Assembly (NCBI RefSeq): GCF_018977255.1
Contig: NW_024704768.1
Coordinates: 2,914,001-2,978,000, forward strand
Source: Callorhinchus milii
Lineage: Eukaryota
Direction: 5' to 3'
Length of the DNA stretch: 64,000 nt
In this document: piece by piece, positions 53-56,600 of the stretch
How the letters are laid out: each line of letters begins with the position of its first letter
Numbering within the stretch: the first letter of the stretch is position 1
Notes under the pieces: model-generated
What the model was told of the DNA's origin: nothing
The model's input: only the letters and a program-made list of their open reading frames with translations
Database searches by the model: none
Program-made: the position numbers and the translations under genes

Positions 53-441
53 GTAAATCCTGCCTTTCCCAGCAACTACGTCGACGACGACAGCTGCAAC
101 AACGACAACAACGCCGCCGCCACCACCAACTTGCGCCCCCTCGTGCAAGGCAGCGTCCCATTAACAATCCTCGCTTTCGTTGGCGCGCCTCGTCGCGGCG
201 TCTGCGAGCCGTCCCGCCGAGCGCCTTTGCGGCTTTTCCGTGACGTGTAGTGACTGTGCGCTTGGCGGGCGAAGGGCGGCGGCCGATGGCGTGACATCGT
301 TTGGGAGTGAGTATGAGGATAATAATAGTATTATTATTAATCCTTGCATTTGATGTCTCCCTCTCCCTCAATCCCTCCGCCTCGCCCCCCCCCCAACGCC
401 CCCCACCAACCCCCCCCCCACCCCCTTCATCGTGTCCGCAG

Positions 442-17806: not shown

Positions 17807-18454
17807 GAGTGCTGCACAAATGGACCAACTACTTGAGTGGTGAGAGTCAGTGGATTGAATCCCAACCCCTCTCCCGGGTTCCTCCTCCTCTTCTTCCTCA
17901 TAACGATCCTCGTCTCCGACCCGGCGCCCCATCGCGTCTTCCGGACGTCTCAAAGCGCTCCGCGGGACACGCTGTAAAGTGTAGTGACTGTGCGACGTTC
18001 CCCCGCCCCCACCCACCCCCGCAAACAGCGGTGAAATTGATCATTATTATTATTTTTTTTGGGTGGGGAAGGGATTATTACCCCCGGAAAAGCCATCCGC
18101 CGATCGACCGATCGACCTACTGACTGCTGGTAAACAGGCGTGTGCGCGTGTGCGCGCGGACGTGCGTGTGCGCGGACTCCAGAGAGGCGGACTCCGGTTT
18201 CCCCGGACGTTCCCGCCGCTGTTTTCTTTCGCACCAGGTCCGGCGACGGGATCCCAGCGACGCTTCGCCCCGGACGCGGGCGACATCCTCGTACCCGAGC
18301 AAACAGCACGACATGACTCTCCAGACTTTTCTTCCCGGCCGGAGGTTCCCGGCGAACGAGCGGCGCCTCCGGGTCTCCGGATCGCCCCCCGCGCCCCTCT
18401 CCGCGCCCCTCGCCCTCGGCGGCCGCGCTCTCTGCCCCGAAGCTTTGGAGCTCT

Positions 18455-18496
<42 letters not shown>

Positions 18497-21400: not shown

Positions 21401-24400
21401 TAAACTATAACTGGAGCACAGCAGCGTCCCCCCCGCACTCTCTCTCTCTCTCTCTCTCTGGAGGGACGACCCCCCCTCCCCCACCATCCCCCCACCGCTT
21501 ACCTAATTCCGGAGAGTATTAGGCGCAGGTTGGCAAGAGCCAAGCCTTGTGTGTGTGGGGGTGAGCCCAGAGTGTGCGTCGGGGGTAACTGCTGGAGTGT
21601 AACCAGTAAAGTCGCACTGATACCGTTGAGAACCAGTACTGTGCACCGATGCACCTTTTAATCAGCAAATGTGATTTAGTTGTACAGCACAGAAGGAAAA
21701 CCATTTGCCGATCGCCTTTCCAAGAGCTCTTTGTCCAGTTCCACTTCCTCTCCCTTTCTCCTGTAGCCCTTTTGTATTTTTCTTTCTTAAACGTCAGCCC
21801 TATTAATATTTGCGTTCGGACGGGACTTTGAACTCATGGCGTTGGCTGATACCTTGCGGTGCTGGGAGCGAATGAGATACAGTGCAGGTGCAGTCCTTTG
21901 GATGAGACGTTTTCCTTTTCTGTAGGGCCTTAAACGCCTGAGGGGTCCCTGTGGCTCAGCGGTTAGAGCCCTCTCGCCTCGCGAGCGAGAGGACCCGGGT
22001 TCGATTCCCGGGCAGGAGCGAAACATTGGGCAAGTTTCCTTACTCCACACACACACACACACACACGCGCGCCCACGCACACGCGCCCACGCACACGCGC
22101 ACGCACACGCCTCTGTTTATTTACCCAGCAAGTAAGTTGTTAGTCGATCGGCAGATCGCTTTTCCAGGGGGTAATAATCCCTTCAAAAAGATGAATAAAT
22201 AACGATAATGCGGTCACTCAATCCGCGACTTGTTTGCGGGGGACGCCGCTGGGCTCAACCGGCTGCCGCGTTTCGCCCACAAAATCCCGCGAAGCGCCTT
22301 TGAGACGTCTCGGAAGACGCGATGAGGCGCCGGATCAAACGCGAGGAGCATTACTGCTATCGCTATCGTTATATACATCGTCACAGCGCCTTTGGGACGT
22401 CCTCCCGACGTGAAAGGCGCTCTGTGAATGGAATCTTGTTGTTGTTGTTGTTGTATATCTTGACCTCTGTGTTCGTCCGTCATTCTGAAATCTGCAGATA
22501 TCAGCGAGAACGACGATTGCTTGAAATCCAAAATGTCTGAGCTGCGGCTGTATTGTGACTTGCTGATGCAGCAGGTACATAAGATCCAGGAGTCCGCACA
22601 CCCCATGGAGTGTGGTTCCACTCCCGACGTTGAGGTAGCGTAAACCTCATTGCTTCGGTGGCCACGCACCTTTGAGTTCAGCTCAGTGGTCAGAGCCCTC
22701 GCACCCCGCAAGCGAGGGAGGACCCGGGTTCGATTCCCGGGCGGGTCGGGTCGGGTCGGGTCAGGTCGGGGCGAAACGTTGGGCAAGTTTCCTTACTCCA
22801 CACGCCTCTTGTTTACTCAGCAGTGTGTAGGAACCCGGTTGTTAGTTGATCGGCGGATCGCTTCTCTGGGGGTAATAATACCGCCAACGCAAGGTTATTA
22901 AAAAAAAATAATAATTTGCTCACTCAATCCACGACTGTTTGTGGGACGCTGCTGTGCGCAATTGCCTTCCGCGCTTCCCCCGCAAAACACACAGCCACTA
23001 CACCATAAGACCATAAGACGTAGGAGCAGGAGGAGGCCATTCGGCCCCTCGAGCCTGTGCCCCGCCATTTAATAAGATCATGGCTGATCTTCTAACCTAT
23101 TTCCATTTACCCGCCCTCTCCCCATATCCCTTAATCCCTCTACCCTTCAGAAATCTATCAACCTCAGTCTGGAATATGTTCAAGGACTGACTGAGCATCC
23201 GCAGCCTTCTGGGGTAGAGAATTCCACAAATTCACTACCCTCTGAGTCAAGAAATGTTTCCTCAACTCAGTTCGAAAAGGCTGAGCCTTAATCTTGAGAC
23301 GACGACCCCCTCGTTTTAGATTCTCCAACCAAGAGAAACAGTCTCACGGCATCTACCCTCTCTCTATACGCCTTACAGTGTGTCCCGTGAAGCGCTTTGA
23401 GACGTCTCGAAGACGCGATGAGGCGCCGAATCAAACGCGAGGGTCATTAACCCTCCGAGCGGGTCATCTGTGCGCCGCGGGGGGAGAAGTTCGGGAGGAT
23501 TTTAACGGTGAACGTTTTCTCCGCGGAACGCAAACGCCGAGTTTCTTTTTTGGTTTAAAAAGATCCAAACTAAGCCGTAGGTCTTCGCTTGCAGAAAATG
23601 AACGAAGCGTCCTCGTTGCTTAAAGCCACGTGCAATACCTTCATAAACACCCTGGAGGACTGTATGAAGATAGCAAGTGTCAAGATCGCCCCAGAGCTTC
23701 TCACACCCCCGGAATCCACGGTTGTCCATGTTACCTCCACGCCGCTTCGCAGGGTTGGTGAATTTCCTATCACGTCTATCCTCCACCACCTATTATTGAG
23801 GCCTGTGGCTCAGTGGTTAGAGCGAGAGGGACCCGGGTTCGATTCCCGGGGGGTGGGACGGGCACGGTCAGGTCGGGTCAGGGCGAAACCTTGGGCAAGT
23901 TTCCTTACTCCACACGCACACGCGCACACACACACACACACACACGCGTGCCTCTGTTTACCCAGCAGTGTGCCCGGGAACCCGGTTGTTAGTCGATTGG
24001 TGGATCGCTTTCCAGGGGGTTAATAATCCCTTCAAAAAAAAATAATAATAATAATAATTTGGTCACTTCAATCCGCGGCTGTTTTCTGGGAGGACTCCGC
24101 TGTGCGCAGTTGGCCGCCGCCTTTCGCCCCACAAAATCCACAAGTCGCTACACTTCGCGGTGGGTCCTGCGAAGCGCTTTCTGAGACGTCTCGAAGGCGT
24201 GGTAAGGCGGCTGTGTCCATTGCGAGGATTATTATTATTAGCGTTATTATTACTATCGCATCGAGAGTTTGACCCGTGAGCCGCGAGATGTGTACGTTCT
24301 TCAGTTTTCTTCCTCGTTTTAACACTCCAGGTCCGACGTTCCGTGAGTCACACCGGTGTCGCGCCTGACAGGTACGTACCGGGTAAGACCAAGCGTTTTT

Positions 24401-29242: not shown

Positions 29243-32200
29243 ATGACGGAGGATCGGGCCGCTGCTGCAGCCAAGAAGAACCCCAGCTGTCCCAGGTGAG
29301 ACCCCCGCCCCCCCCCCCTCCCCCTGAACCCTCCCCCTGAACCCCCCCCACCCTCCCCTGAACCCCCACCCTCCCCCTGAACCCCCCCCACCCTCCCCCT
29401 GAACCCCCCCCCTCCCCTGAACCCCCCCACCCTCTCCCTGAACCCCCACCCTCCCCCTGAACCCCCCCCCCCACCCTCCCCCTGAACCCCCCTCCCCCTG
29501 AACCCCCCCTCCCCCTGAACCCCACCCTCCCCTGAACACCCCCCCGACCAATCCATCCACCCCCCCCCCTGAACCCCCGACCACCCCCCCACAATACACC
29601 CACCCTCTGGCTCTCCTCCACCACCCCACACCCTTCCGAACCCCCTTTCTCGCATCCACCCATCCCACCTGAACCCCCTCCCCCCACCCCTTGCTTAACC
29701 ACTCCCACCACACCACTCCCTCCCCCCCACCCCGAAGCCCTTCCCCCACACTCCACCCCACCCCCACAATGCACCCACACTCTCGCTCTCCTCCACACCC
29801 CCCACCCCCCCTCAGGTGGGGATAGCGTTCCCGGAGAGCTTGACGGTGGCGGAGTCTGACCCCGAGCCGGGGGGAGGGGGGAAGTGACCGGAGCCCGATC
29901 AACAAGGAAGGTCTTTAGGTGGGACTTGAAGGTGGGGAGGGAGAGGGGGGGGCCGAGGCGGAGGGCATCGAGGGAGAGAGAGTTCCAGAGTTTCGGGGCG
30001 CAGTGGCTGAAGGCCGACGGAGGAGCAGAGGGGACGAGCGGAGGCAGCGGGCGGGGGAGTCGGGAGGTGGTGGGGGAGGGGGGGGGCGGGTAGGCGGGTC
30101 GGAGCGGTGGGGAGGCGCGAGGGCACGAAGGGGTTTGAGAGCGAGTGAGGGGATCTCGAAGTCGATCCGTTCGGTGATCGGGAGCCGGCGAAGGGCTGGC
30201 GTGAAGGGGTCTGGAACTCTCTCCCTCAATCCCAGCCTCCGCCTTGCCCCCCGCCACCCCCTCCCCCCCCCCCCACTTCCCCTATTTCAGATCACGACCG
30301 AAGACTTTCCTCGTCCACCGTGCTTACGGTCACCTCCCCCCCCCCCCCCCCCCACCGTCCCTGCCCGGCGTCGGGCTCTAGCGATGTCAAGAGCTCAGAG
30401 ACAACACCCCGCTTGAAGGGAGCTACGCAACTGCAAGTTGTCGCCTCTCTCTTTGTCCCCTCTTGACCAGAGGGGGACAGCTTGCCGGGGTTTCGGTACT
30501 AAAAGGAGAGCCAGCTGCCTGCTCGCCTCCGAGTGCCCTGGTTACGCGGTGGTTAATACGACTAGAGCACATAAATTTAAGTGTAAAACATACCCAAGTT
30601 GGTCTATTGAACAGAACTTAAATGCACCTTGGTGCACTGGGAAAGAGATGGCCGTACGAGACGTTAAACCGAGCTCCCCTTCTGTACACGTTCAGGTGGA
30701 TGTGAAAGATCCCGTGACACTCTTCGAAAAGAGAAGGGAAGGGAGCTTCTCTTTTCCTGGTGTCCTGGCCGATAGTGGCCTCCAAATAAAATTGGTCGCC
30801 GACTTTTATTGCTGTTTGTGGGACATTGCTGTGCACAAATTGTCACTCAGATTTTCTTCGGGAAAAGCCCGAAAAATGTTTTTGCTATTACGCGCCTCTG
30901 TGTGTGCACGTGGTTTTATGCGTACTCGTGTCTCTCTTTTTATATAATATTACAAAGAACATTATTCTTTACAATGTGAAAAAGAAGATCGGACACAGCT
31001 TATTCTCCATCAAATCCTGTAAGAAAATTGTATTCTTTCCAAATCAGTATTGAGCAAATGCTGGCCTCAAACCCTGGGAAGACACCCATTAGTTTACTGC
31101 AGGAGTATGGAACCAGGATTGGAAAGACACCGGTGTATGACTTGCTGAAAGCCGAGGGCCAAGCACACCAACCAAACTTCACTTTCCGAGTGACAGTCGG
31201 TGACATAAACTGCACAGGTCTGTTTGCATTTCAACTTTTTTCAGAGTACATCTTCAGTTTGGAATGAACTCTTAAAAATGCAGAAAGCGTATCAAGTTCT
31301 CTGCTTTGTTTCGCCCACAATATATACAGTCACTACACTTTACAGTATATCCTGTGAAGTGCTTTTGAGACGTCTCGACTACATGATGAGGCGTTATATC
31401 AAATGCAAGGATTATTATTATTCGTTCAATGCTTGTGTTCATTTTAGTTAGAAGTTGTATTTACTGTGTGTCATTCCAGTCAGTACAGCATTTATGTATG
31501 AAGAATATAGTCGTGAGGTCAGTGTGCAAAGTGAAGTGCAAAGTATGTCATTAAAAAGACCCCAAGTCAGATCACTACTCGTGGACGCCAGAGAATCGAG
31601 CATTGATTTCAGGGAGAAAATCTTCATTTTTTTGGATTGCATCCTTTCTGGGAGAAATAATTTACTTCTGGAGCGGTAATCCCTTTCAAAAGAAAAGTTC
31701 TCAGCACAGTCGTTCTATCAGTTATTGACTGAATCTCTGAAGTGTAGCTGATATATAGTCCAAAGTTTGTATTATTGCAGGTTTGCCGTCACAGCTCTGT
31801 TTTTACTTTACTTGTGACAAGTATTGCAACCTTTCTCTCCCCCCCCCCCCCCCACCCTGACCATTTTGTCAGATTTGCCAATTATATTTGTCAGATATAC
31901 AAAATGCCCACAAACTACAGTCACTACACCTTACAACATATGCCATGAAGCACTTTAAGCAGTCTTGAAGACCTGATAAGGCTTTATATCAAATGCAAGG
32001 ATTATTATTTATATATATTACTATTATCTCCCCATACTGTTAGGTCCTGACACACAGTAACATCACTGGCCAAGTTTGCATGCAAAATGCACTGTTAAAA
32101 CGTCCGTGTAAAATGATACAAAGGACGCAATTGATATCAAGCACGGGTTAGGAATGATTATTTTGGTAGCTGGGAGCGGACTGTTCACATCTTTCTCAAG

Positions 32201-35200
32201 GATTCGGTCAATCCCTCATCAGTAACCTTCAGAGTCGGGGTAAAATTGTGTGGCCTTAAAAACCTGGAGTCTTGTCTCCTGCTGAGGATATGTTCCAATC
32301 TTGCTTCGTCTTAGTGCCTGATTTGTTCTATTTCCGTTCTCTTGCCTCAGGTCAAGGACCAAGCAAAAAGGCAGCAAAGCATAAGGCTGCAGAAGCTGCC
32401 CTGAAATTATTAAAGGGAGGAAACATGTTGGAGCCTATGGGAGATGGAGTTAAGTATGTGAATAACTGCCTTGAAATATTTTCATTATATTTTGCACCGG
32501 GTAAAAAAAAAAGGTCTTAACACTCTTCATTTTTTGATTTATATTTAAAAAAATGCTTCTTTCCTTGTATTTAAGCGCTCGACGACGCTGTCCATCTTGA
32601 AGGGTGCTATATAAGTGCAAGTTGTTGTTGTTATTTGGAGGCATAACCATCAACAGGTTGGACCAGTGTCAGGAAGCTATTTGTGAACAAGAGGGAATCG
32701 GAATCTCACTGTGCAAGCCCTTTCTCCCGTCACAAGGAGCCATAATATCTTCAGACGGATTAAAATGAATCTTGCCAAGTCGCACGCCTTACAATATAAT
32801 TACTGTCACATCTGTACCCAGTGTTAAACATCCTGACCTTGCTCCTTTTTAATAACTTTTTTTTTGTCAGAAATTGTTGCTTCCTCTGCCCCGCCGTCGC
32901 ACCAACATTTTTCTCCATGTTTGACTCGACAGTTGAAATGCGATGCTCTTCGGAGTCGATAGGATTTTGGGAGACTTTCACCTGATGTGTTTTTGCTTGT
33001 TGGTGGAAAAATTAGGGTTGTTTCATCGCCGTTCAATGCGACAAGTGGAATGACTACTGTTGGAGCCAGAGTTAATCCAGACTTTTTTTCTGCAGTGCAT
33101 AGCAGCAAAAGATATAGGCAATTATGTCCTATAAATATCCTGTCTGCTAATCTTTTGACACATGGGTCTTAATTCCATACAGCAGATCAGCGGGACTGTA
33201 AAAGATTAGCGTGCCAAGATCATGCTACTGTTGACCATTCCTTTCCCAGTACACCAAGGTACTTTTAAGTTCTGTTCAATCGACCACGAAGCACGTTTCA
33301 GATTTAATGAAGGAGTCTTGATCTGGAAATTCTAATCCTTAATTTCTTTTCCAATTCTGCATTCCTCATGATCAAAAATTGTTTCTTTTCAGGATCTCTG
33401 CGACTGAATCCAAAAGCTCAAACTCTGCCCAGCAGGCCGAATGTAACCCTGTAGGAGCACTGCAGGTATTTAAGCGCTCTGAGATGCTATCCTACATGAA
33501 GTTGTTATTTATAGAGTCTGGCGAAGGTAAAACATTTTGATAAAAACTCTTTTATTCTCTTACCCCACTCCCCTCTCCCCGTGGCTCTGGGTGGGTAGGT
33601 GCACAACAGTGTGATGGAGATGGGAGATGGAGTTAAGTATGTGAATAACTATCTTTAAATATTTTCATTATATTTTGTACAGGAAAAAAAAAAGGTCTTA
33701 ACACTTAATTTTTTGATTTTAAAAAAAAAGCTTATTATGTGAAATGCTCGGGCACTATCAGGAGTGTTCCACTTAGTGTGTTCTCTTTCTCTCCAGGAGC
33801 TGGTCGTTCAGAAGGGATGGCGGCTGCCAGAGTATACAGTGACTCAGGAATCTGGTCCTGCCCATAGGAAGGAGTTCACCATGACTTGCAGAGTAGAAAG
33901 ATTCCTGGAGATAGGTACAGACAGACTTTCAGCCGTTCCCCAATTAATGCAATCTATGCGTATCTGTCACTGCTGTGCTGCTTTATAAATAGTGAACACA
34001 GTAGAACACACTTTAGACCAAGCCCTCTGTGAGGAGGCGTGCGTGCGTGAGGGGTGCACATAAATGCACATTTGTTGTTAGCCCGGCGGATTGGTTTTGT
34101 CCGGCCGTTTCCGTCTTTACTGCTTTACCTCTCGGCTACGCCTCTCTTCTGGTCAGTCTCCGTGATGCAGCGCGCAGAGTGACAGGAAGAGCCGGGGAGC
34201 AGGAGGTATTTGGGAAATAGAGAAATAGAAAACTGTAAGTGGGTTGTGGATTATTTGTTTATTGAAAGTAATGGAAAACCTTCAATGCCTTGCTTGTTTG
34301 CCCACAAAACACACAGTCACTACCCTTTGCAGTGTATTCTATGAGGCGCTTTGAGACGTCTCAAAGACATGAAAGGGAGCTATATCAAATGGGGTATCTG
34401 ATCGTGTGTGTTAGATTTTTACAATTTTTGGGTGTGAATGAATTACTACTTCATTTTTCCTGCCGGTTTGCCCATTGCAGGAAGCGGGACTTCAAAGAAG
34501 CTGGCAAAACGGAACGCTGCAGCGAAGATGTTGGCAAGGATCCACGATGTACCAGTGGATCACAGGGACGGGAACGAAGTCGAGCCCGAAGATGACCAGT
34601 TCTCCATCGTAAGTCGCCAAAAACCGAACGAAACTTGAGAAGAGCTGGACAGATTTGTTGAGAAGGTCGCCAGTGTTAATAATCATAGAATCATACAGCA
34701 CAAAAGGAGGCCATTCGACCTATCATCTCATGCGGCTCTTTGAAATAACTGTCCCCTACTCTCCCCATAGCCTTGCAAATTTGTCCTCCCCAAATATCTA
34801 GCCACTTTTCTCTTGAAAGTTGTTATCGAATCTGCTTCCATCACCCTGTCAGGCAGTGCATTCCAGATCCGAACAACAGCATTATTATAGTAATAATCCT
34901 TGCATTTGATATAGCACCTTATCACGTCTTCAAGATGCTTCCAAGCGTTTCACAGAATATACTGTATAAAGTGGATTGACTATATTTTGTGGGCGAAACG
35001 TGGCAGGCAATTGCGCACAGCAGTGTCCCACAAACTGTTTTTTCCCTGTTAAAATGTCAAAATGTCGTCTTCCCTCCAGTTGATAGGCAGCAAACTAGAC
35101 GGCCCAAGGGGCAAGAACACGTGTTGTACATGGGACTCGCTCCGAAACTCGGCCGGAGAAAGGATTCTGCATCTCAAGAGCCATCCGCTCAGTGTCATCA

Positions 35201-36104
35201 ACTCAAACTTCTGCCAAATGCTGAGGGACTTGGCTGAAGAGCAGCAGTTTGACATCAGTTATTTGGACATCGGTAAGCAAGCTGTTTTTCAAAAAAAAGA
35301 GAAATCTATTTTGAATGGGATTTGTTTGGCAGTTTTCCTTGTACTTGAGCAGCTAAATTCACTGTTTAAGCAAGTCCTCTGGGTGTTGCTTTCTGCTGCA
35401 GTAATGATGTCCAGACTGTCCACAAAGACCCAGCAGCTGAACCATGTGGAAGATTAGTGATAATTGTATTTAGAAGTACTTCATTGTATTCCGTACAAGT
35501 ATTTAACTGTATTTGGATGTCCAGAGGATCAGTGTGCGTGAGTGAGTGCCATCATTTTCATGGCAGATAACGATATGTGGGCTTTGCTTGGTGCTACATG
35601 TTCCGTAACGGGGATGGAGTGACGAGAGGTTTCTTCAGGCAATAGTAAACTGTTTGTGAGGAATTTTCTGGGGGTAATAATCCCTTCAAAAATAATAATA
35701 GTCATTTTGTCACTCAATCCACACCTGTTTTGGAACACTGTTGTGCGCAATTGGCTGCCTGCGTTTCACTGTCAATTCATTTTCCAATATTCTGTGAGGC
35801 GCTTTGAGACGTCTCAACGATGTGATAAGGCGCTGTATCAAATGCAAGGATGATGATTATTATTGTAAGTTTAGATGACGTGATTTATCTTGGCTCGTCC
35901 ATCGTCGCAGCAGTATTTTATCGGCTCATCTTATTTTATCTTTCAGAGGAGCTGAGCTTGAGTGGCCTGTATCAATGTTTAGTGGAGTTGTCAACTCAGC
36001 CGAGCACCGTCTGCCATGGCTCGGCCTCCACCAGAGACGCAGCTCACGCCAACGCAGCTCACAACGCACTCCAGTATCTCAAGATAATGGCTGGCGGAAA
36101 ATGA
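29243..36104 (+). CDS. TARBP2: RISC-loading complex subunit TARBP2 (TRBP), three dsRNA-binding domains
   Basis: Exons: 29243-29295 ([17 protein letters not shown]), 31048-31217 ([53 protein letters not shown]), 32351-32453 ([18 protein letters not shown]), [linker exon uncertain], 33393-33465 (ECNPVGALQ), 33797-33914 ([13 protein letters not shown]), 34481-34608 ([18 protein letters not shown]), 35080-35272 ([15 protein letters not shown]), 35947-36104 ([22 protein letters not shown]). 331 aa in frame without a linker exon. The [22 protein letters not shown] start matches TARBP2 rather than PRKRA. Confidence 0.96.
29320..29580. repeat. C-rich minisatellite CTCCCCCTGAACCCCC (G-quadruplex-prone on the minus strand)
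   Basis: Directly visible just after the first TARBP2 donor. Confidence 0.9.
30640..30845 (+). mobile_element. Old DeuSINE fragment (Deu domain)
   Basis: gagacgttaaaccgag..caggtggatgtgaaagatcccgtgacactcttcgaaaagag..tggtgtcctggcc..ttgctgtttgtgggacattgctgtgcacaaattg matches my recollection of the AmnSINE1/SacSINE1 Deu domain. Confidence 0.7.
33183..33258 (+). CDS. TARBP2: Possible TARBP2 linker exon between dsRBD1 and dsRBD2
   Basis: Open frame ([25 protein letters not shown]) ending at a phase-2 donor ag|gtactt that fits the next exon. The obvious acceptors are phase 1 or 0 and do not fit the phase-2 donor at 32453. Confidence 0.35.
34685..34880 (-). mobile_element. CR1 LINE 3' fragment
   Basis: Minus frame [34 protein letters not shown] plus the ttctatg tail. 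Confidence 0.8.
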
Positions 36105-41865: not shown

Positions 41866-42896
41866 CGAACCCAAGTCTCTCACGAGACGAGTGCTGTATC
41901 CACTGAACTACAGGTACCCACGGAGTTCAGTATGGAAGTGACATCTTCTTAGACGACCAAGCCTTAACGGAAGCCATAACCACACAGAGAGGCAGGTAGG
42001 TGTGCTACTAGCTGAGCCAAGCTGAAACCGCAAGAGATGGGAGTCTTCGTACAAGTTGATGGCAAACTAAAGATTAAATTGTGAGTATTGATGCTGTCAT
42101 CAACGACTGTGTGTGTGTGTGTGTGTTTTAGTATTGAAGCTATTATTATTTTCAATAAGTCTCTTTGGAGAATCATTTGCTGGGAATGAGATAATTAATA
42201 ATAATAATAATAATCCTAGCATTTGATGTAGCCCCTTATCACGTAGTTGAGACATCTCAAAGTGCTACAAAGAATACACTGTAAAATGAATTAGCTGTGG
42301 GTGAAGCAGTCCCTTTTTCTAAAGGATTGTTATCCCCTGAGCCGAAGGGTTAGATCAGAAGGGGTGGAGGGCAAGAGTGGAAGGGGTAGGAGGTTGACCG
42401 AAGGCACGGTCGAAGAGGAGAGTCTTGAGAGGTCAGCCTAGACTACGAGCTGAAAGTCCCCATGTGGGGCTTGAACCCACAACCTCCTGAGGACTGAGCC
42501 CAGACCGACACCTCTTTCCGTTTACTGTAATAATAATAATAATAATCCTTGCATTTGATATAGCATCTCAAAGCGCTTATGGTGCTGCAATAAGGCCTCA
42601 GGAGTGAAACGGTTACGATACTGTTCTTACTTCCAGAGGAAATCGAGCGACAATTGCGTAAATTTTAAACTTTATTTTAATTCTTAGTGAAGACATACTG
42701 TAAATGTGACGAATGAATGAAACGGTTTCGTTGATTTTCTTTTCTCTCAAGAAGAAAGAAGAAAGAAAGAAAGACCTAAAATATTTTTCTTTTAATCGGG
42801 ACTTCTCGGAAACGCAGCCCCTGCCGGCTATCGGAAGGATGTCGGGCAAACTCGCCTTCGTCAAGTCGGGCAAACTCGCTGCCGCTTCCAGTTCCA

Positions 42897-44810
42897 TTAC
42901 TTTTTCTTCCCGAATCGCTGCGGAATGGCCATCTTCCAAAACTGCGGTGGAATTGTATCCTGGGTACGCGATTGCATCTGAACATTTGCCCCGTGGTCCG
43001 CAGGTATTCGGTTTTCACGGCCAAACCTAAGGGGAAGGGAAAAGGATATTCACTTAATAAATAATAATAATACTTGCATTTGTTACAGCGCCTTATCAAG
43101 TCGTCGAGACGTCTCAAAGCGCTTCACGGAATATACTGTAAAGTGTAGTGACGAGTATTTTGTGGGCGAAACGCGGCAGCCAATTGCGCACAGCAGCGTC
43201 CCACAAACAGTCGTGGATTGAGTGACTAAATTATGATTTTTTTTTTAAAAGGGATTGTTACCCCCGGAAAGTGATCCGCCATTCGACTAACAGCCGGCTT
43301 GCTACTGACTGCAAGGTAAACAGAGTCGTGTGTGTGTGTGTGTGTACGTGTGTGGAGTAAGGAAACTTGTGTAAGGTTCTGCCCCGACCGGGAATCGAAC
43401 CCGGGTCCTCTCGCTTGCGAGGCGAGTGCTCTAACCTGTACGCTGCAGGACTCCACATATAGCAGGTAACGAGACAAAAAAATAAATGGAGCTGTTAGAA
43501 GGAAGCCAAGGTCCAAAAATAAGAGACCATATAAATAATACGACTGTAACTTTCTCCCCAAAACAGTACAACAACAACAAATTATACTCGTATAGTGCCG
43601 TTCAGGTTGGAAAGACGTCCCAGGGCGCTGGACAGTCCGGGGTTTTTGGATCGGTTGGGGTCAGGAGGGGTGGAGGGCAGGAGGGGTGGGGGTGGGAGAT
43701 TGGCCGAAGGCACGGTCGAAGAGGAAAGTCTTTAGGAGAAGGAGGCAAGAGATGGGGGGGTGGTGAGGCGGAGGGATTGCGGGAGAGAGTTCCAGAGCGT
43801 GGGGGCAGAGATGCTGAATGCCCCAACCGTCAATGTTGGGGCGGGAAATGCGGGGGACCTGAAGCAGGCCGGTGTCTGTCGAGCGGGGGGAGCGGACAGG
43901 CTGATACGGGGGTTAGGAGGTCGGAGAGGTAGTGGGGGAGCAGAGCCGTAGAGGGCTTCGAAGGCGAAGTAGAACTGAAGCGACAGACGACGGGAACCTG
44001 GACCAGTTTGCTGAACGCGACTTACCTCTGCGGCTGAAACACAAAGGAGGGGCTCCTTCCAAATCGCTGTGGTGAGTGCATGACGGACCTCATCAGTGAG
44101 TCGAGTAGTCGATCATCTGCCAGCCCTCTCACATTTTGTTCCTCCCCGTCCTGTCGACAGGTGAGCGTCAGCATTCACGCAGCAAAGTTGCCACCTAACC
44201 TGTACCTTTGCTTCTTTAGTTTAAACGTAAGAGAGTTGCAGGTTGCGCAACGATAGTCCTCGCATTTGATACCGCCTCTTTGCGGCGCCTCAAAGCGCTT
44301 CGCGGAACCTACTGTGAAGTGGAGTGACTGTACGTTTTGCGGGAGAAAGGCGGCAGCCAATTGCGCGCAGCAGCGTCCCCACGAACACTCGTGGATTGAG
44401 TGACTAAATTATTTTTATTTTATTTTTGGAAGGGTTCATTAACCCCGGAAAAGCGATCGGCCAATCGACTAAACAACCAGGTTCCTACTTACCACTGGGT
44501 AACCAGAAGCGTGTGCGTGTGTGGAGTAAGGAAACTTGCCCAACATTTCGCCCTGACCTGACCCGACCGGGAATCGAACCCGGGTTCCTCTCGCTTGCGA
44601 GGCGAGAGCGCTCTAACCACCGAGCTACAGGGACTCCACCGTAAATGTAAACGAGAGCGATTCGGTGAAACTTACCACCGCGGACAGAAGTCTTTCCGCG
44701 ACGCTCTGGGGCAGGTAAAGTGCTTCTGCCGTCCCCTCCTTGGTGCCGGTTGCCCTCCTGGTGCAGCCAGCCGCTAGGAACAAGACAGCGAGGAGAGCCC
44801 GGGCGTACAT
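42897..44810 (-). CDS. NPFF: Pro-FMRFamide-related neuropeptide FF precursor (NPFF/NPAF), 129 aa, 3 exons
   Basis: Exons 44810-44676 ([29 protein letters not shown]; signal peptide), 44150-44026 ([42 protein letters not shown]) and 43026-42897 ([42 protein letters not shown]). All introns GT-AG and in phase. AATAAA on the minus strand at 42671-42676. Tail-to-tail with TARBP2, as in human. Confidence 0.95.
43058..43455 (-). mobile_element. Full-length tRNA-derived SINE in NPFF intron 2
   Basis: Complete head, body and tail on the minus strand; close to the apparent family consensus. Confidence 0.88.
43568..43960 (-). mobile_element. L2 LINE 3' fragment in NPFF intron 2
   Basis: Reverse of ctctgcccccacgctctggaactctctccc..aagactttcctcttcgaccgtgccttcgg..cagcgccctgggacgtc, with a (ttg)n tail. 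Confidence 0.75.
44250..44638 (-). mobile_element. Full-length tRNA-derived SINE in NPFF intron 1
   Basis: Head, body and tail on the minus strand. Confidence 0.85.
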
Positions 44811-44889
44811 GGGTGCAGACGAGCTGAGCTCAGAGCTGAGACACCGAGAAAAACCGCAGGAGTCTGTCTAACGCCGTTCTGGTACGGCC

Positions 44890-44902
44890 ACCTTTTAAAG
44901 CA
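44890..44902 (-). promoter_or_regulatory. TATA-like box of NPFF
   Basis: ctTTAAAAgg on the minus strand (44893-44899), about 85 nt upstream of the ATG. Confidence 0.45.
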
Positions 44903-48183: not shown

Positions 48184-51100
48184 ATGCCGAAGAAGGCGAA
48201 GGCACCGAAAATGTCGAAGCTGTCAAGGATGACTGAGGAGGAGAGGCTCCTGTACATGCAGGAGAAACAGCTGGAGGAGGATGAGCTGAAGAAGAGGAAA
48301 GAGGACATGTTGGCTCAATTCCTAAAGGTGCGTGTGCACTTTGCTTCAGGCGTCAATTTAGTAATAGTAATAATCATAGTAATAGTAATAATCCCGGCAT
48401 TTGACACAGCGCCTGATCACGTCTTCGAGACCTCTCAAAGCGCTTCGCAGAATACACTTTACAAAGTGTGGTGACTGCGTATTTTGCGGGCAAAACGCGG
48501 CAGCCAACTGCGCACAGCGGCGTCCCCCACACAAACAGTCGTGCGTTGAAGTGACCAATTTTATTATTATTTATTTTGAAGGAATTATTACCCCCGGAAA
48601 AGCGATCCGCCAATCGACTGACAACCGGGTTCCTCCTTACCGCTGGGAAACTTGCCCAAAGTTTCACCGTGACCCGCCCGGGAATCGAACCCGGGTCCTC
48701 TCGCTTGCAAGGCGAGCGCTCTAACCACTGAGCTGCAGGGCTCCACGTGTTTAGCGCCTTATCACATCTCAAAGCCCTTCACAGAATATACTATAAAGCG
48801 CATTAACCGTATATTTGTAGGCGAAACCCGGAGGCCAATTGCGCGCAGCGACGTCCCCGCAAATAGCCGTGATGCTACTTGTGACCAATTAATTATGATT
48901 TTAACTTTATTTCAATTTGAAGTTTGGGTTGAGAAGCAACAACAACAACAACAACTTGCCTTTACGTGGCACCCTTCACCCCAAACGGCAGCTCAGAGCG
49001 TTTTATTTACTCCCAACGCGAAAGGCACTTAACACGGATGTAAATTTGTCGTCGTCGTTGTAGCCTGGGCTGTGCTCTTCTCCTGCAGGACAAACTGTCC
49101 AAGGAGGAGCGCAACACTCACCTGAACATGTGGAAGCTGAACGAGAAGTGGCGTGCTGTGATGCGGAGATCGAAAGCCTCAGAACTGCAGAAAGACATCG
49201 CGATCTTGAGCCAGACCTTCGAAAGAGTCGCGGATCGGAAAAACAGCATCATCAGGGTACGAGGAATTGCCTTTTGTCTCGGGAGGAAAAACAGCGACTG
49301 AGCATTGATGGAGAAGTAGAAATATTTGTTTTAAAAAAATCTATTCTAAGAATAATCCGTGCTGATTAGTGAATTGACTGTGTATTTTGCGGGCGAAACG
49401 GGGCAGACGGTTGCTTATCGTTCCGGGGAACGCGGGTTGCTGACATTAATTATTATTATTATTATTATTGCTGTACCTTTGGGCCAGGCTTTGATAAAGG
49501 ATTTGGCGGAATCGGAGGAGCAGTACGCAGCACACCTTCGCAATCACGCACAGAACGTGGACAGGATGATAAACATGCAGTGGGAGAGGCTGCAGGTTTT
49601 AGATGACGAGTTCACATCAGAGGTGGACACCCTGAAGAAAGAGTTCGAATCCGAGGGGTGAGTGCCCCATTCTGCTTACCCAGCCGTCAGCAGGAAGCCG
49701 GTCGTTAGTCGATTGGCGGACCGCTTTTCCGGGGGGGTGGGGGCTGGGGGGGGGGGTTAATAATCCTTTCAAAATAAACAATAATAATTTGGTCACTCAA
49801 CCTCAACCAGACACACAGACACAAAGCAAGATAATACTACTACTACTAATAATAATAACCTTTGCATTTGATAGAGCGCCTGAGACGTCTGAAAGTGCTT
49901 CACAGACTGTATCGGGAAAGTGGATTGACCGTGCATTTGGTGGGCGCAACGCGGCAGCCCGTTGCGCACACAGCAGCGTCCCCGCAAAGAGTCGTTGATT
50001 AAGCGACCCACTTTTAATTTTTATTATTACCACCGGAAAGCGATCTCCGCCGATCGACTTAACAGCAGAGCCTAAACCGTTTCGGTGATTATTCTTGTTC
50101 CCCTCTCTGCGTCCCCGACAGGCACGAGTTTTCTGACCTACAAGAAACGGAGATGACCAACTTGGAGGATATCACGTACGCGATGGACCAGATGTTTGGC
50201 GAGATCGCAAACGAGGCGAGGCAAGAGTTCAACAGCACGAAAGACGACCTCAAAAACAGGGTAAGGCCGTGCGGTGACCGGACTGATTCAGGATAGACAG
50301 TCAGCTCACCACAAACAGGGTGATAGAAAATGTCCCTCACCAGACAATGTTCTGAGTAATGTCTGTAGTCTAAACGCAACCTTCAGTGTACAGGACAACC
50401 CAGTTATTACCTCTCCTCCTCCTCCACCATTGGCCTTCAGCCTCTCTGCCCCCACCCTCTGGAAATCCATCTCACAGTCCCTCCGCCTCACAACCCCCCC
50501 CCCCACCCCCACTTCAAGACCCTCCTCTTCGACTGCGCCTTCGGTCGCCCTCCTACCCCTTACCCTCCCCGCCCTCCACCCTCTCCTGATCCCAGACTGC
50601 CCAGCGCCTTGGGACGTCCTCCTGACGTGAAAGGCGCCACGTCAACGTCAGGTGGGTGTCGTTTATCGTGCTGGTGACCCACCCTAACACGGTACACCCG
50701 GCTACTTTTGGTGCTGGCCAGCTGGCTCACCGCCCTGTTGCCTTCCACCAACTGAGCCGAGCTGACATTGCCCGTCATCGCCAATGCAACCGCCCACCCG
50801 GCCCTCGTGTTGTGTTCAGAGCCTGGAGGAGAAGCACTCGCTGCGGGTACAGCTGGAGGGGGAGGTGGAGGACCTGTGGCAACAATTCCAATACGTCATG
50901 AAGTTGTACAACGAGGCGACCGAGGAACAGAAATCCGCTTTCGAGCTGCTGAAGGAGAGGGACGAGAAGAGCGCCAAAGAGATCGAGAGGCAGATGAAAA
51001 AGCTGCAGAGAATCCAGGTAAATCCCAACATCTTTCTCTCCCGCGTACTCGATTTAACCGTAAAAGTAGTGGCTTATAAGCGAGCGGGCCCGGGCTCGAT

Positions 51101-53241
51101 TCCCCGGGCGGGGCGAAACCCCAGCCTAGTTTCCTTTATGCGGCGGACGCCGCCGTGCGCGATCGGCTGCCGCGTTTCCCCCACGAATCGTCCAGTGGAT
51201 TCACTTTCAGCCTCGATCGAACAGAGTGGCGGAGCAGGCTCGAGGGGGCTCCTCCAGCTCCTGTAGCCCCGCGCGTTCTCAGAACGAATGTCTAAAGCTA
51301 ACCAGAGATGTCGCTCGCCCTCCTACCCCCCCCCCACCCCCCACACCGCCCCCTCACCCGCCCCGCCCTGCCCTCCACCCCCTCCCGATCCCAACCGCTG
51401 GGTAAACATCGTGCGTTGTTGCGGCTGCTTCGTAGGACACGATTACCCTGCTGCGGATCAAGTTGGCAGCCAACGCCCGGGAGTGCCAGGAAAAGAACAA
51501 GAAACTCCGAGAGGAGAAGGCCACCATTAAGCAACACTTCCAGACGCAGAAGAACCACATGAAGCAGCTGCAGACCAACGAGCGAGAGCGGCTCATGAAG
51601 CTAACACTGGAGAGCAACGCTGCCCTCAAAACACTGGGAAAAATCTGCAAACAGGTAACCGAGGGAGTCACCGAGCGCTCGATCCACCCCAGGTAGTCGG
51701 GCACTGGATAATAATTAATCATCAATCAGAAACGATTGATTAATACTAATTTAATAATAATGATGATGAATAACCATTGCGTTTGACACAGCGCCTTATC
51801 ACGTCGTTGAGACGTCTCAAAGCCTTTCGCAGGATACACCATAAAGTGGATCGATGGTACATTTGCGCAGCCAACTGTCCCACAGTCTTGGGAGTGAGTG
51901 AGGGGGGGGATTTGAAAGTGGGGCGGGAGGGGGGGGGGAAAGGCGGAGGGAATGAGAGAGAACCTAAAGACCTTCCTTTTGAAAGCGCTTAAGGTCACCC
52001 CCCCACCTCCCTCTCCCCCCTGGCTCGGTGTCAGACTCCCGTCAATGTCGAGCTCTCCGGGACTCTTATGCTGTGAAGAATGCAAGTTGTTGTTGTTGGA
52101 CGAGTTCTTAGGAATGTGTAAGGGCCCAAACGGTGTTTATTTGAAGCGGTGTAACCTTCCTTCGATGTGTTCCAAGGGGGAACATGTGCTGAAAGTGGCT
52201 GAGATGTGCAGGAAGCTGGAGACTGAAGAGGAGAAAATACTCCCGTTCTATGCTTCGTCTCTGACGTCAGAAGACCAGGACCGAGTTCGGAACATGATGC
52301 TGAGGAAGACGAAGGAACCATTTGCTATGGTACGTGTTGGTTAGGCTCTTCCTTACACTTGATCTTCTAAGACCTTACGGGGAGCCCTGTAGCTCAGTGG
52401 TTAGAGCCCTCGCCTCGCAAGCGAGAGGACCTGGCTTCAGTTCTTGGGCAGGGCAAAACTCTGGACAAGTTTCCTTACTCCCGCACAAGGAGTAAGGAAA
52501 CTGTTTACTTAGCAGTTTTTTTTTTAGATAATTGGGGTAGCTGAAAAATAAGACGTTTTGATCACCGTGTATATCGTGAGTTGGTGGCTTGAGGTCAAAG
52601 TTGGGCTGTTGGTTAATTCCCTTGGTTGAGCGTGTTCCCGGCTGGAACCACAGATGAAATGGGAGATAAAAAGGTGTTAGCTGTTTCTGGATTCACTGAA
52701 GAGGATGACTGGGGCTAGATCTCACGGGAGAGAGAATTTGTTCCAGATTTCTTTGGTGCGAGTTTGTCCCGCACCCAACCGCACGCGACCGTTCTGGATT
52801 CAACACAACGTGATCGTTCTAGATTTGACATGGTGTGGTTGTTCTGGATTTAGCATAGTGTGATTGCTCCAGGTTTGACAGTGTTTGTTCCAGGTATCAT
52901 TGGGTTTTTTTTATTCCCCCCCTCCTCTCTCTTTTAAGCTGGATCTGGACTACATGGGCCTCGAATGCTTCTGGAAGCGTTACAACAAGGTACAGCTGGA
53001 GCAGATGACTCTGAATCAGGAGAAGCGAGTGTTGCAGCAGGAGAACGTCCACCTCCGGCAGCTCCTGAAACAATACCTCGACGGCATCTCGGTTAACGAA
53101 GAGATCCTCTCGAACCTCAACTCCCTCATCGTCATCAACAACAAGACCATGAAGATGAACGTGCCTGTGATGGAGACCAGGGTCGCCAAACCCGTGTGTA
53201 ACATGATCGAGGCCGCACACATCTTCAATCACATCCCCTAG
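48184..53241 (+). CDS. CCDC65: Dynein regulatory complex subunit 2 (CCDC65/DRC2), 497 aa
   Basis: Exons 48184-48327 ([23 protein letters not shown]), 49089-49256 ([19 protein letters not shown]), 49488-49657 ([12 protein letters not shown]), 50122-50260, 50820-51017 ([18 protein letters not shown]), 51436-51654, 52177-52329 ([22 protein letters not shown]) and 52939-53241 ([22 protein letters not shown]). All in phase. AATAAA at 53455. Adjacent to FKBP11, as in human. Confidence 0.94.
48360..48746 (-). mobile_element. Full-length tRNA-derived SINE in a CCDC65 intron
   Basis: Head, body and tail on the minus strand. Confidence 0.85.
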
Positions 53242-53687: not shown

Positions 53688-56600
53688 TTATTTCTTTTTT
53701 AATTTGCTCCTCTTCTCCTCTTTGAGTTTCTTTTTCGAGACTTTGGTGGCAGTGGCTTTTGTGTAGAGGTAGTAAGCGATCAGGCACAGGAGACCGGGGA
53801 TCAGCACAATGGAAGCCAAGGGCACAACTTCATTCAGCTTCTTTTTCCAGTACGTCTGCTTCAACAGAGACACCAGTTCAACCTCGAACACCAACGCAGC
53901 ATCTCCTGAAACGCACAGCAGTCATAATTTAAAGCCACCTTCGTGTCTTCCTCCTTAGTCAGGGGGTGGGGAGGTAAAGTGGGGGGTCTCCTCGGAGCTG
54001 AACTGGCTCCAAGGTGACCTGCCTGGCAAGGGGATGTGGGGATCGAGCCCCACTTCCCCTCTGTAACGGTCTCTAGTCCCCGGTTCCTGAGCCAGGAGGG
54101 GCCGCAATGTCCCAGGGCACTCACTGCTGATGGCAGCACAGTCCGGCCCGGCTCATCCATCGGCAGAACCTGGAAGGGCCGACCAGTCACTGGGGGCAGG
54201 GAATCCTTCCCCTCGGCTCCCGTTCACCCCACAGCCAAAGCCCTGACTACCTAACTAACGGGGCGGGTGGTCCGAGCTGGACCAGCAGCGGGAAAGCTTA
54301 GCCAGACAGCGCTCTCTCAATGGCCGAGCTACGTGTGGGTTTAGCTGGTTAGACTCCAGCAGTTACCCCAACGCAGCTTTGGCTCTTGCCAACCTGCGCC
54401 TAATACTCTCCGGAATTAGGTAAGCAGTGGCGGGAGGGACACGGGGGGGCGTCCCTCCGGGGGGAGAGAGAGAGAGAGAGTGCATTCCATTCCGACAATC
54501 TGTCTCTGGAGTTTCCATGTGTAGGTGGGATGCGGGGAATTCTCAGTTGGGTTTGGAGACTCTTAAGCAACGGTGATGGGTTTCCGCGGGTGTCAAGACA
54601 GCCGCCTGACCCTCTCCCCCCACCCCCCCCCCCCCCACCCACCCCAAAAAGAAATCATGGATCTCAGGCCAAAACCACCTCCTCCGCTGACAACAGAAGC
54701 AAACACTTGCCTGGGATAGACGGCGGAAGGCCTCGCTTGCCGTAGGCCAGGTGAGATGGAATCATTAATCTCCTCTTCTCCCTGCAAGTTAACAAAAGAC
54801 CGACCGTGAACTTCCCTCGGTTCTTTCCTCCCCTCGTCGGAGCCGACGTCAGCCGCGCACGCTTTACACGGCGCCGTTTTCTTTTTGGGCTGGAGAACGT
54901 CTCGAAGCTCCCCGCCGCCGTGAGAGTCACCCACAAAATACACAGTCGCCGCGCTTTACCGCCCGTCCTGGTGAAGCGCTTCGAGACGTCTCGAAGACCA
55001 CGCGACGAGGCGCCGGGTCAACTGTGAGGATTGCTATTAACTTACCCGGTGCACATGTCCAGAAGGCCTTGCTCCAAGCCTGCGAAGGGGAAATAAAGTC
55101 GGGTGAATACCTTTCGGAAACCGCTCCTACGGTCCAGACACGTGAGGAGCAGAGCTCGAAGGTTACAATACAATACGACATTTACGCAGCAACTTTCACG
55201 CTGTCTAATAATAAATAAGAAGCCTCGCATTTGACGCAGCGCCTCATCGGGTCTTCGAGACGTCTCAAAGCGCTTCACGGGAGACGCTCCATCGTGAGTT
55301 GTCTGTATTATTTTGTGGGCGAAACGCTCCGGTGTTCCTCTGCTTAAAAACTTTTTTTTTGTCCATCCCCTTTCTTGGAGGTCTTTTGACCCCCGCTCGA
55401 GCCGGCGGGCAGACAGAACCGTCTTCCTCGAGCGCCTTGGGACGTCCTCCCGACGTGAAAGGCGCAATTTTGTTGTGGCGTCGAACGTGCGTTCGGGCGA
55501 CTGAGAGCAAGTCATCTGTTCGTCTTGGGAACCAAGCAATAATAATAATAATAATAATAATAAGTATATAGTTTTTGGGGGACACAAAATGTCAAAGCGG
55601 CTGCCAGGATGGTGGAAGGTCTCCTTTTCGCCCGGCAAACTGTTATGTTCCTATGTTCAATCCTTTCTAACTGTGTTCCGTGGGCAGTGTTTCCGATAAT
55701 GTTTCATTCTGTGAGTGTTTCTTTTTATGTATTTTTTTACCTGGGATAACCTGCTTTCTCCCCAGTTGAACATCCAAGGGATCGCGCACCAAAGAGTTAT
55801 CAAACATGGTCCCATCATCCAGCCTCCCCTGAGACAGACAGACAGACAGACAGACGGTCAAGGAAAAATAATAATAATAATAATAATCCTGGTGCTTGAT
55901 ACAGCGCCTTATCACATCGTTGTGGCATCTCACAGCGCTCCACAGAACGTGGAATTGACTGTACATTTTGTGGGCGAAACGCGACAGCCAATTGCGCACA
56001 GCGACATCCCCACAAACAGTCGTGGATTGAGTGACCCGATGTTTTTTTTTTTTTTTTTTGGAGGGATTATTACCCCCCGGAATGCGATCCCCCCCCAATC
56101 GACTACCAACAGCCGCGTGGAGTATGGAAACTCGCCCCAATGCTTCGCCCTGACCCGGGAATCCAACCACGGGGAAGGGTTTCTACCTGCGTCACGACCC
56201 TCAGGCGGACCGACCGTGCGGAGCGGTGGGAGCGGACAGACTTGTAAGGGGAAAGTGTCTCATTTCAGGCATTTCCGCCTTTTCCACCTCTCCGTCGACT
56301 GACGTGGAGATTTAGCGAAGAGTGCGCACAGATGTGCTGCTCCCAGACTCCGCTCTGTGTGATCGATTGCTGGGGGTGGGGTGAAGGTGTGTGTGTGTGT
56401 GCGGCGGGTTGTGGGGAGGGGGAAATAACAATAATAATAATCCTCGCATTTGACACAGCGCCTGATCACATCGTCGAGACGTCTCAAAGCGCTTCACAGG
56501 ATACGCTGTACCGTGTAGTGACTGTGTATTTCGCGGGGCCACACGACCCATCCCTGAGCCCTATTTCCCTTTCCAGCGCTGCGTTGTCAGGCGGTCACTT

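What the first reader, a model, noticed from the sequence alone, without database searches (positions are those of the whole stretch)
42897..44810. Hidden NPFF precursor encoding three PQRF-amide peptides
Seen: three short minus-strand exons, only the first shown in the correct frame by the ORF track, splice into a 129-aa prepropeptide. It has three amidation sites: [25 protein letters not shown] and [23 protein letters not shown]. Established: human NPFF yields two PQRF-amide motifs (FLFQPQRFa, ..QFWSLAAPQRFa), the first position having decayed, whereas lamprey and fish precursors carry three RFamide-type motifs. Inference: this is the ancestral three-peptide state with an intact first PQRFa and an unusual WKMAI NPAF variant, giving candidate new ligands for NPFFR1/2.
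Basis: partly seen in the sequence, partly recalled or inferred. Interest (0 to 1): 0.7.

Follow-up and report, generated by a model that had tools for sequence, protein, structure and literature searches.

The report
Elephant-shark neuropeptide FF keeps third peptide
This is the elephant shark's already annotated, spliced gene for the neuropeptide FF precursor; it is predicted to release three signalling peptides instead of the usual two, likely an ancient lamprey-type state that only a lungfish shared among the jawed animals checked.

Summary
The three exons give a 129-aa protein identical to RefSeq XP_007910255.1, Callorhinchus milii 'NPFF like'. A 502-nt contig from a likely RNA run bridges both introns, and a second study bridges intron 2. 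Pfam NPFF, the peptide motifs and the neighbours (TARBP2, a Hox13 gene on the same contig) make it NPFF, not GnIH.

What is worth keeping is the first PQRF-G-R slot. Among 196 relatives examined, only this gene (2 models) and the lungfish protein have three sites. Lamprey and hagfish carry the motif in the same aligned slot. Sharks, rays, ray-finned fish and tetrapods have eroded it, so 'fish carry three' is wrong, but retention of an ancestral state is well supported. A 2019 paper says only lamprey and hagfish encode three; I found no paper noting this exception. Processing, amidation and receptor activity are inferred, not shown. The WKMAI variant is unique in the set but lies outside the conserved receptor-binding end. 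Modest comparative interest.

The parts
44811..44858 (-). 5' untranslated leader, as far as the contig reaches
   Evidence: contig 1 of X1 begins at 44858; no ATG between 44903 and 44810
44893..44899 (-). TATA-like TTTAAAA about 40 nt upstream of the contig's 5' end (candidate only)
   Evidence: pattern match; function not tested
44676..44810 (-). Coding exon 1 (45 codons): ATG, predicted signal peptide, start of the pro-region
44745..44810 (-). Predicted signal peptide, aa 1-22 (hydrophobic core about aa 5-14; cut after A-T-G inferred)
   Evidence: hydropathy and alignment with shark precursors; no SignalP run
44151..44675 (-). Intron 1 (GT..AG, phase 0) with a tRNA-derived repeat, head at 44559-44634
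44026..44150 (-). Coding exon 2: peptide 1 and most of peptide 2
   Evidence: Pfam NPFF E 2.1e-06; contigs of X1 and X2
44061..44087 (-). Predicted peptide 1 (slot 1), [14 protein letters not shown], aa 67-75, between R66 and G76-R77
   Evidence: release inferred
43023..44054 (-). Predicted peptide 2 (NPFF/NPSF type), aa 78-88, ending FQPQRF; the Arg codon is split by intron 2
43027..44025 (-). Intron 2 (GT..AG, phase 2) with a second tRNA-derived repeat, head at 43380-43451
42897..43026 (-). Coding exon 3: end of peptide 2, spacer, peptide 3, GKKK, stop
   Evidence: Pfam NPFF E 1.4e-09; contigs of X1 and X2
42912..42965 (-). Predicted peptide 3 (NPAF type), aa 108-125, ending WKMAIPQRF
   Evidence: N-terminal cut at R107 inferred from position
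42676..42896 (-). 3' untranslated region; contig cover ends at 42833; ATTAAA candidates at 42796 and 42681
   Evidence: the true 3' end is not shown
30980..36104 (+). Neighbour TARBP2, tail to tail with NPFF (synteny marker, not part of the gene)
   Evidence: exon at 35053-35454 matches TARBP2 chains, E 1.6e-14; other exons read
50766..53241 (+). Neighbour CCDC65/DRC2, the part tested (synteny marker)
   Evidence: 52879-53238 matches DRC2 chains, E 2.2e-23; Pfam PF14775

Best explanation
This is the spliced NPFF (PQRFamide) precursor gene of the elephant shark, whose 129-aa product is predicted to be secreted, cut at basic residues and amidated into three PQRF-amide peptides that would likely act on NPFF receptors, the first peptide being a likely survivor of the ancestral lamprey-type layout. 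Steps: (1) three exons are transcribed and spliced (shown in contigs); (2) the N-terminal signal peptide routes the protein to secretory granules (inferred); (3) prohormone convertases cut after R66, R77, R90, R107 and the terminal lysines, carboxypeptidase trims, and the amidating enzyme turns each F-G into F-amide (inferred from the standard pathway, recalled); (4) the shared PQRF-amide end docks in NPFFR2/NPFFR1 and lowers cAMP through Gi, while the different N-terminal parts tune receptor preference (inferred from human structures); (5) slot 1 was present in the ancestor of jawed vertebrates, stayed intact in chimaera and lungfish, and eroded separately in sharks and rays, ray-finned fish and tetrapods (inferred by hand parsimony from the alignment).
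For: Identity with RefSeq XP_007910255.1. Spliced contigs in 2 studies. Pfam NPFF on exons 2 and 3; all 120 listed relatives in each carry Pfam NPFF, and none is named NPVF/GnIH. One strong locus in the genome. TARBP2 and DRC2 beside it and a Hox13 gene 1.18 Mb away on the same contig; PMC4133751 places NPFF near HOXC and GnIH near HOXA, and the HOXA-type neighbourhood is on another contig, C2. Slot 1 aligns without gaps as R-x-x-x-[HN]-x-PQRFGR in chimaera, lungfish, lamprey and hagfish. 11 of 248 stored proteins have tandem slot 1 + slot 2 PQRFGR: 2 chimaera, 1 lungfish, 5 lamprey, 3 hagfish. Partial remnants elsewhere point to decay: six sharks keep P-x-K-F-G-R, Atlantic sturgeon keeps PQRYGR, gar SQRYGR. 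The three PQRFG stretches differ by 3-4 synonymous bases in 15, so they are not recent copies of each other. R66 has an Arg at P8, and R77 and R90 have an Arg at P4, fitting the recalled convertase rule. The lamprey precursor gives three PQRFamides (PMC4062910). The QRF-amide end is the receptor 'message' (PMC13107563).
Against: No peptide, tissue or receptor data exist here; 'RNA' for X1 and X2 is the tool's guess. R66 is a single basic site and is also present in 22 of 35 aligned precursors, most of which lack a slot-1 peptide, so its conservation does not prove cleavage. R107 has no basic residue at P4, P6 or P8, and this gene has Q where 26 of 35 have R at position 103, so the start of peptide 3 is uncertain. 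The signal core is short and followed by RR. No model-based ancestral estimate or tree was obtained. Coelacanth and other chimaeras were not among the named hits. Only the best 120 of 150 and 120 of 332 hits were listed. NPFFR1/2 genes were not looked for in this genome.
Confidence: 0.8

Rival explanations
1. It is an ordinary two-peptide NPFF precursor in practice: slot 1 is intact on paper only because the lineage evolves slowly, and it is not released as a free active peptide (it stays on the pro-region or is degraded).
For: Slot 1 was lost in every other jawed lineage sampled except lungfish, so it is dispensable. Its upstream cut is a single Arg. [quoted passage not shown]
Against: The rest of the precursor has drifted (42-62% identity to shark and ray precursors), yet all six residues PQRFGR stand. 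The cut at R77 is needed anyway to free peptide 2 and exposes F-G for amidation. R59 sits at P8 of R66.
Confidence: 0.14
2. The first PQRF motif was regained separately in chimaera and lungfish, by point changes from an eroded state or by copying from slot 2 or 3.
For: The motif is short, and eroded forms such as PQRYGR and P-x-KFGR are one or two residues away. No model-based test was run.
Against: Lamprey and hagfish have the intact motif in the same slot with matching flanks. The three codon stretches differ at synonymous sites. It needs an early loss plus two regains to the same six residues.
Confidence: 0.05
3. The gene is the GnIH/NPVF paralogue rather than NPFF, since lamprey GnIH peptides also end in PQRF.
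For: Lamprey GnIH peptides end in PQRFamide (PMC6200920). No intact LPXRF-G-R gene was found at the expected HOXA-side locus.
Against: None of the three peptides has Leu before PQRF. Every named relative is NPFF or unnamed. The neighbours are TARBP2 and DRC2, not C7orf31/CYCS, which lie on C2.
Confidence: 0.01

Closest known systems
RefSeq XP_007910255.1, pro-FMRFamide-related neuropeptide FF like, Callorhinchus milii
   Same: Identical, 129 of 129 residues.
   Different: Nothing in sequence. It is a predicted record; no paper on its peptides was found. A second model, UniProt A0A4W3IF28 (92 aa), starts at an ATG in intron 1 and lacks the signal peptide; the X1 contig supports the 129-aa form.
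Lamprey and hagfish PQRFamide (NPFF) precursors (BAE79779.1 cluster; BAL03638.1)
   Same: Three PQRF-G sites in the same order and aligned slots; 36% and 30% identity.
   Different: Jawless vertebrates; peptides identified biochemically according to PMC6241250. Peptide 3 reads WMRAM or WMRAF there, WKMAI here.
Lungfish NPFF (Protopterus annectens, XP_043939863.1)
   Same: The only other jawed-vertebrate protein of the 196 with three sites; slot 1 reads RSLLHVPQRFGR; 47% identity.
   Different: Keeps the usual SRGW start and a WNMAV core in peptide 3.
Mammalian, teleost and shark NPFF precursors (NPFF/NPSF and NPAF)
   Same: Slots 2 and 3 with invariant R77, PQRFGR and PQRFG in 35 of 35 aligned proteins.
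   Different: Slot 1 eroded: for example QRPGR in amniotes, QRYGR or QRETR in ray-finned fish, P-x-KFGR in sharks, K-T/A-GR in rays.
GnIH / NPVF (LPXRFamide) precursors
   Same: Paralogue from genome duplication; shares the PQRF end in some peptides (PMC4133751, PMC6200920).
   Different: Needs LPXRF in jawed vertebrates and lies near HOXA; neither holds here.

Membership tests
NPFF (PQRFamide) precursors | Match to the Pfam NPFF model above its cut-off | tested here: met
   Exon 2 28.3 bits, exon 3 38.5 bits, 92-aa model 82.5 bits; cut-off 27
NPFF (PQRFamide) precursors | An FQPQRF-type peptide followed by a W-containing NPAF-type peptide at the C-terminus, each with Gly plus basic residue | tested here: met
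NPFF (PQRFamide) precursors | N-terminal signal peptide | tested here: inconclusive
   Hydrophobic stretch with window means up to 3.07 aligned with relatives' N-termini; no dedicated predictor run
NPFF (PQRFamide) precursors | Location in the HOXC-side neighbourhood | tested here: met
   Hox13 on the same contig 1.18 Mb away; TARBP2 and DRC2 adjacent. That this cluster is HOXC, and that TARBP2 flanks NPFF in humans, is recalled; the HOXC link is from PMC4133751
NPFF (PQRFamide) precursors | Spliced transcript | tested here: met
   Contigs of X1 and X2, RNA guessed by the tool
NPFF (PQRFamide) precursors | Mature amidated peptides that activate NPFFR2/NPFFR1 | not testable with these tools
   Needs peptidomics and receptor assays
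NPFF (PQRFamide) precursors | Groups with NPFF rather than NPVF in a tree | not tested
   No NPVF sequence was retrieved and no tree was built; no NPVF-named protein appeared among the listed hits
Three-peptide lamprey-type PQRFa precursors | Intact PQRF-G-R in slot 1 directly before the NPFF-type peptide | tested here: met
   Same aligned columns as lamprey and hagfish
Three-peptide lamprey-type PQRFa precursors | Slot-1 peptide released in tissue | not testable with these tools
   Only the cleavage context was inspected
GnIH / NPVF (LPXRFamide) | LPLRF or LPQRF peptides in jawed vertebrates | tested here: not met
   Residues before PQRF are S, Q and I
GnIH / NPVF (LPXRFamide) | Location beside C7orf31 and CYCS near HOXA | tested here: not met
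   Those genes are on contig C2, the window is on C27; the NPVF neighbour order is recalled

The most novel reading that the evidence does not exclude
The slot-1 peptide is a real third NPFF-gene hormone inherited from the first vertebrates, kept among jawed animals only by chimaeras and lungfish and lost at least three times elsewhere. In the elephant shark, which shows no intact GnIH gene at its expected locus, the NPFF gene alone supplies the ligands of this receptor family, and the extra peptide stands in for GnIH at NPFFR1.
Probability: 0.1. Interest if true: 0.55.

Novelty: new member of a known kind. Interest (0 to 1): 0.27.

Why it matters
It corrects a statement in the field that only lamprey and hagfish NPFF precursors encode three peptides (PMC6691130): two distant jawed lineages keep the third, which dates its loss to several separate events after jaws evolved. 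It offers one untested natural PQRF-amide and one unusual NPAF variant as probes of NPFFR1/NPFFR2 selectivity. It does not open a new mechanism; the gene is annotated and the peptide class is well studied.

Tried and rejected
(1) The look-up of sequencing runs listed no holder on record as RNA; X3, X4 and X9 gave no exon contig. Neither is evidence on expression.
(2) Exon 1 alone has no Pfam match, and the precursor has no meaningful PDB match, best E 0.44.
(3) A weak family hit, L004 on C9 (E 6), is a single QPQRF followed by Cys with no Gly; treated as chance.
(4) L005 on C7 reads NLPFRFGS in a 24-residue open frame; 1 match against 1 control match, and C7 has no Hox13 hit; rejected as GnIH.
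(5) I scanned 600 kb of C6 (25.15-25.75 Mb) believing it was the HOXA side; its open frames read as titin, an RBM45-like gene and a PDE11A-like gene (names recalled), so it is the HOXD side and says nothing on GnIH.
(6) No tree or model-based ancestral state was obtained, so the ancestral reading rests on the alignment alone.
(7) The alignment figure in the supplement of PMC4077772 is a picture, only labels came through, and its Table S1 is not held; it lists no cartilaginous fish or lungfish.
(8) A search for NPFF with TARBP2 returned 11 unrelated genetics papers, listing only; a search for GnIH in sharks returned nothing useful in the 20 listed.
(9) The search of earlier findings returned nothing.
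(10) An internal cut at K118 giving a short peptide was considered and rejected: no basic residue at P4, P6 or P8, and Trp at P2.

Full report
Observation. The minus strand holds three coding exons, 44810-44676, 44150-44026 and 43026-42897, with GT..AG introns of phase 0 and 2. Together they give 390 nt, a 129-aa protein and a stop. PQRFG begins at residues 72, 85 and 122 and is followed by R, R and KKK; the middle motif is split by intron 2. In the unspliced region PQRFG occurs twice in six frames against 0 in 300 of 300 single-base shuffles, and RFG[RK] three times against a mean of 0.1.

Transcript. Of 12 runs listed, none is on record as RNA. Laying four of them, one 502-nt contig of X1 covers 44858-44675, 44149-44024 and 43024-42833 with no other letter or gap; these are the predicted junctions shifted over shared letters. 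X2, from another study, bridges exon 2 to exon 3 with 46 and 123 letters and one changed letter that I read as synonymous; X5 holds the stretch unspliced; X3, X4 and X9 show no exon contig. The tissue is not known.

Identity. Exon 3 found one protein, a 92-aa Callorhinchus milii model. Its cluster holds RefSeq XP_007910255.1, 'pro-FMRFamide-related neuropeptide FF like', 129 aa, identical to the spliced translation. So the gene is annotated, not hidden. The 92-aa model starts in intron 1 and lacks the signal peptide; the X1 contig supports the longer form. Exons 2 and 3 pass the Pfam NPFF cut-off, exon 1 has no match. The genome has one strong NPFF locus and one weak hit at E 6.

NPFF or GnIH. 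The residues before PQRF are S, Q and I, never L. All 120 listed hits in each protein search carry Pfam NPFF and none is named NPVF (150 and 332 hits in all). TARBP2 lies tail to tail downstream and DRC2/CCDC65 upstream. A Hox13 gene sits 1.18 Mb away on the same contig, C27. PMC4133751 (passages) places NPFF near HOXC and GnIH near HOXA. The contig with Hox13, C7orf31/SPMIP4 and cytochrome c together is C2, which I take as HOXA from the recalled human gene order. No tree was built.

The first slot. Of 196 stored relatives, 3 have three PQRF-G-basic sites (two models of this gene and Protopterus annectens), 190 have two and 3 have one. The profile search of cluster representatives gave 62 hits, among them a lamprey and a hagfish precursor. 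In a 35-sequence alignment the slot aligns without gaps in chimaera, lungfish, lamprey and hagfish. Of 248 stored proteins, 11 have slot 1 and slot 2 both intact: 2 chimaera, 1 lungfish, 5 lamprey, 3 hagfish. Elsewhere the slot is eroded in lineage-specific ways: all 10 aligned sharks and rays have K for R, the six sharks keeping K-F-G-R and the four rays losing F; Atlantic sturgeon has PQRYGR and gar SQRYGR; most teleosts and all sampled tetrapods have drifted further. R77 is invariant in 35 of 35 because it frees the NPFF-type peptide. The simplest reading is retention from the common ancestor with separate losses in sharks and rays, ray-finned fish and tetrapods. This is hand parsimony, not a model. 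The three PQRFG codon stretches differ by 4, 3 and 4 synonymous bases in 15, which argues against recent copying. Coelacanth and other chimaeras were not among the named hits.

PMC6691130 (passages) states that lamprey and brown hagfish precursors encode three peptides and other species only two. PMC4062910 (passages) says the lamprey precursor gives rise to three PQRFamides, and PMC6241250 (passages) says agnathan NPFF peptides were identified. The original papers by Osugi and colleagues (2006, 2011) were not read.

The third peptide. WKMAI occurs in 2 of 196 proteins, both this gene; WSMAV (83) and WSLAA (55) dominate. K118 is found in 1 of 35 aligned sequences. Lamprey and hagfish have a basic residue one place further on. 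The gene has also lost the usual G/D-W start after R107 and has Q at 103 where 26 of 35 have R, so the N-terminus of this peptide is uncertain. These changes lie in what PMC13107563 (part 1 of 3 read) calls the 'address' part; the C-terminal QRF-amide 'message' that docks in the receptor is unchanged.

Mechanism. Shown: gene structure, splicing, identity, motif layout. Inferred: secretion through the signal peptide (hydropathy only); cleavage after R66 (Arg at P8), R77 and R90 (Arg at P4), R107 (no even-position basic residue; conserved in 30 of 35) and the terminal lysines; amidation at each Gly; Gi-coupled signalling through NPFF receptors. The convertase rule and the amidation pathway are recalled. 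Against over-reading R66: it is present in 22 of 35 aligned precursors, most without a slot-1 peptide. Receptor genes were not sought in this genome.

A side question: is GnIH present? [quoted passage not shown] In 200 kb of C2 around C7orf31 and cytochrome c (28 N) there are five scattered RFG[RK] and no LPXRF-G. Genome-wide exact patterns gave 4 matches against 13 control matches for the LPQRFG type and 25 against 50 for the LPLRFG type, none on C2 between 48.0 and 49.3 Mb. Of those 29 matches 24 were translated and none had a second RFG in its open frame. This agrees with loss but does not prove it: the tool warns that absence of a match is weak, variant motifs would be missed, and C7orf31 exons appear twice there. 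Against a link with slot 1: the skate, also reported without GnIH, has lost slot 1, and lungfish GnIH was not tested.

Novelty. Searches (listings and abstracts) and exact motif and accession terms (0 papers) found no paper describing the elephant-shark or lungfish three-peptide precursor. The library lacks most subscription journals, where much of this field publishes, and figures are not searchable. Other papers seen as passages only: PMC4077772 (supplement labels), PMC6200920, PMC4255600, PMC5670112, PMC5207463.

Verdict. A real, annotated NPFF gene. The three-peptide layout is known from jawless fish and is here likely retained in a jawed vertebrate, which is a small but clean correction to the comparative picture. 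Interest 0.27.

Noticed in passing
window 43380-43451 and 44559-44634 (-): ARAGORN calls two tRNA-Ala(CGC) genes inside the NPFF introns. Their continuation into a shared repeat body and the very high contig depth there suggest heads of a tRNA-derived SINE, not tRNA genes.
   Followed up: partly
window 43018-43037 (-): The end of intron 2 read in frame into exon 3 spells LPLRFGR, a GnIH-like motif. It comes from the polypyrimidine tract and is spliced out in X1 and X2; it could mislead motif searches.
   Followed up: partly
G000:C2:49030001-49230000 (L006-L025): No intact GnIH/NPVF-type motif beside C7orf31 and cytochrome c, in line with a 2014 report of no GnIH in this species. C7orf31 exons occur twice about 14 kb apart, a duplication or an assembly artefact.
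   Followed up: partly
L004 (G000:C9:3677823-3677930): A lone stretch ending YQPQRFCR resembles the NPFF-type peptide but lacks the amidation Gly; E 6, likely chance, possibly a decayed paralogue.
   Followed up: partly
L005 (G000:C7:14831523): NYSNLPFRFGS in a 24-residue open frame looks GnIH-like but matches the chance rate and has no Hox13 on its contig.
   Followed up: yes
proteins P0003-P0007, P0013, P0017, P0123, P0008: Eroded slot 1 still ends in Gly-Arg in sharks (K-F-G-R) and in sturgeon and gar (R-Y-G-R), so KF-amide or RY-amide peptides could be released there.
   Followed up: no
protein P0004 (Pristiophorus): Slot 2 reads PQRRFGR, one extra Arg exactly at the intron-2 junction, likely a splice-model error in that record.
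   Followed up: no
window 295-4124, 18124-24023, 55667-56182: Other genes in the window: an SH2-domain gene (tensin-like, name recalled), a PH-domain gene (PLEKHA3/8-like, name recalled) and an FKBP-type isomerase (FKBP11-like, name recalled).
   Followed up: partly
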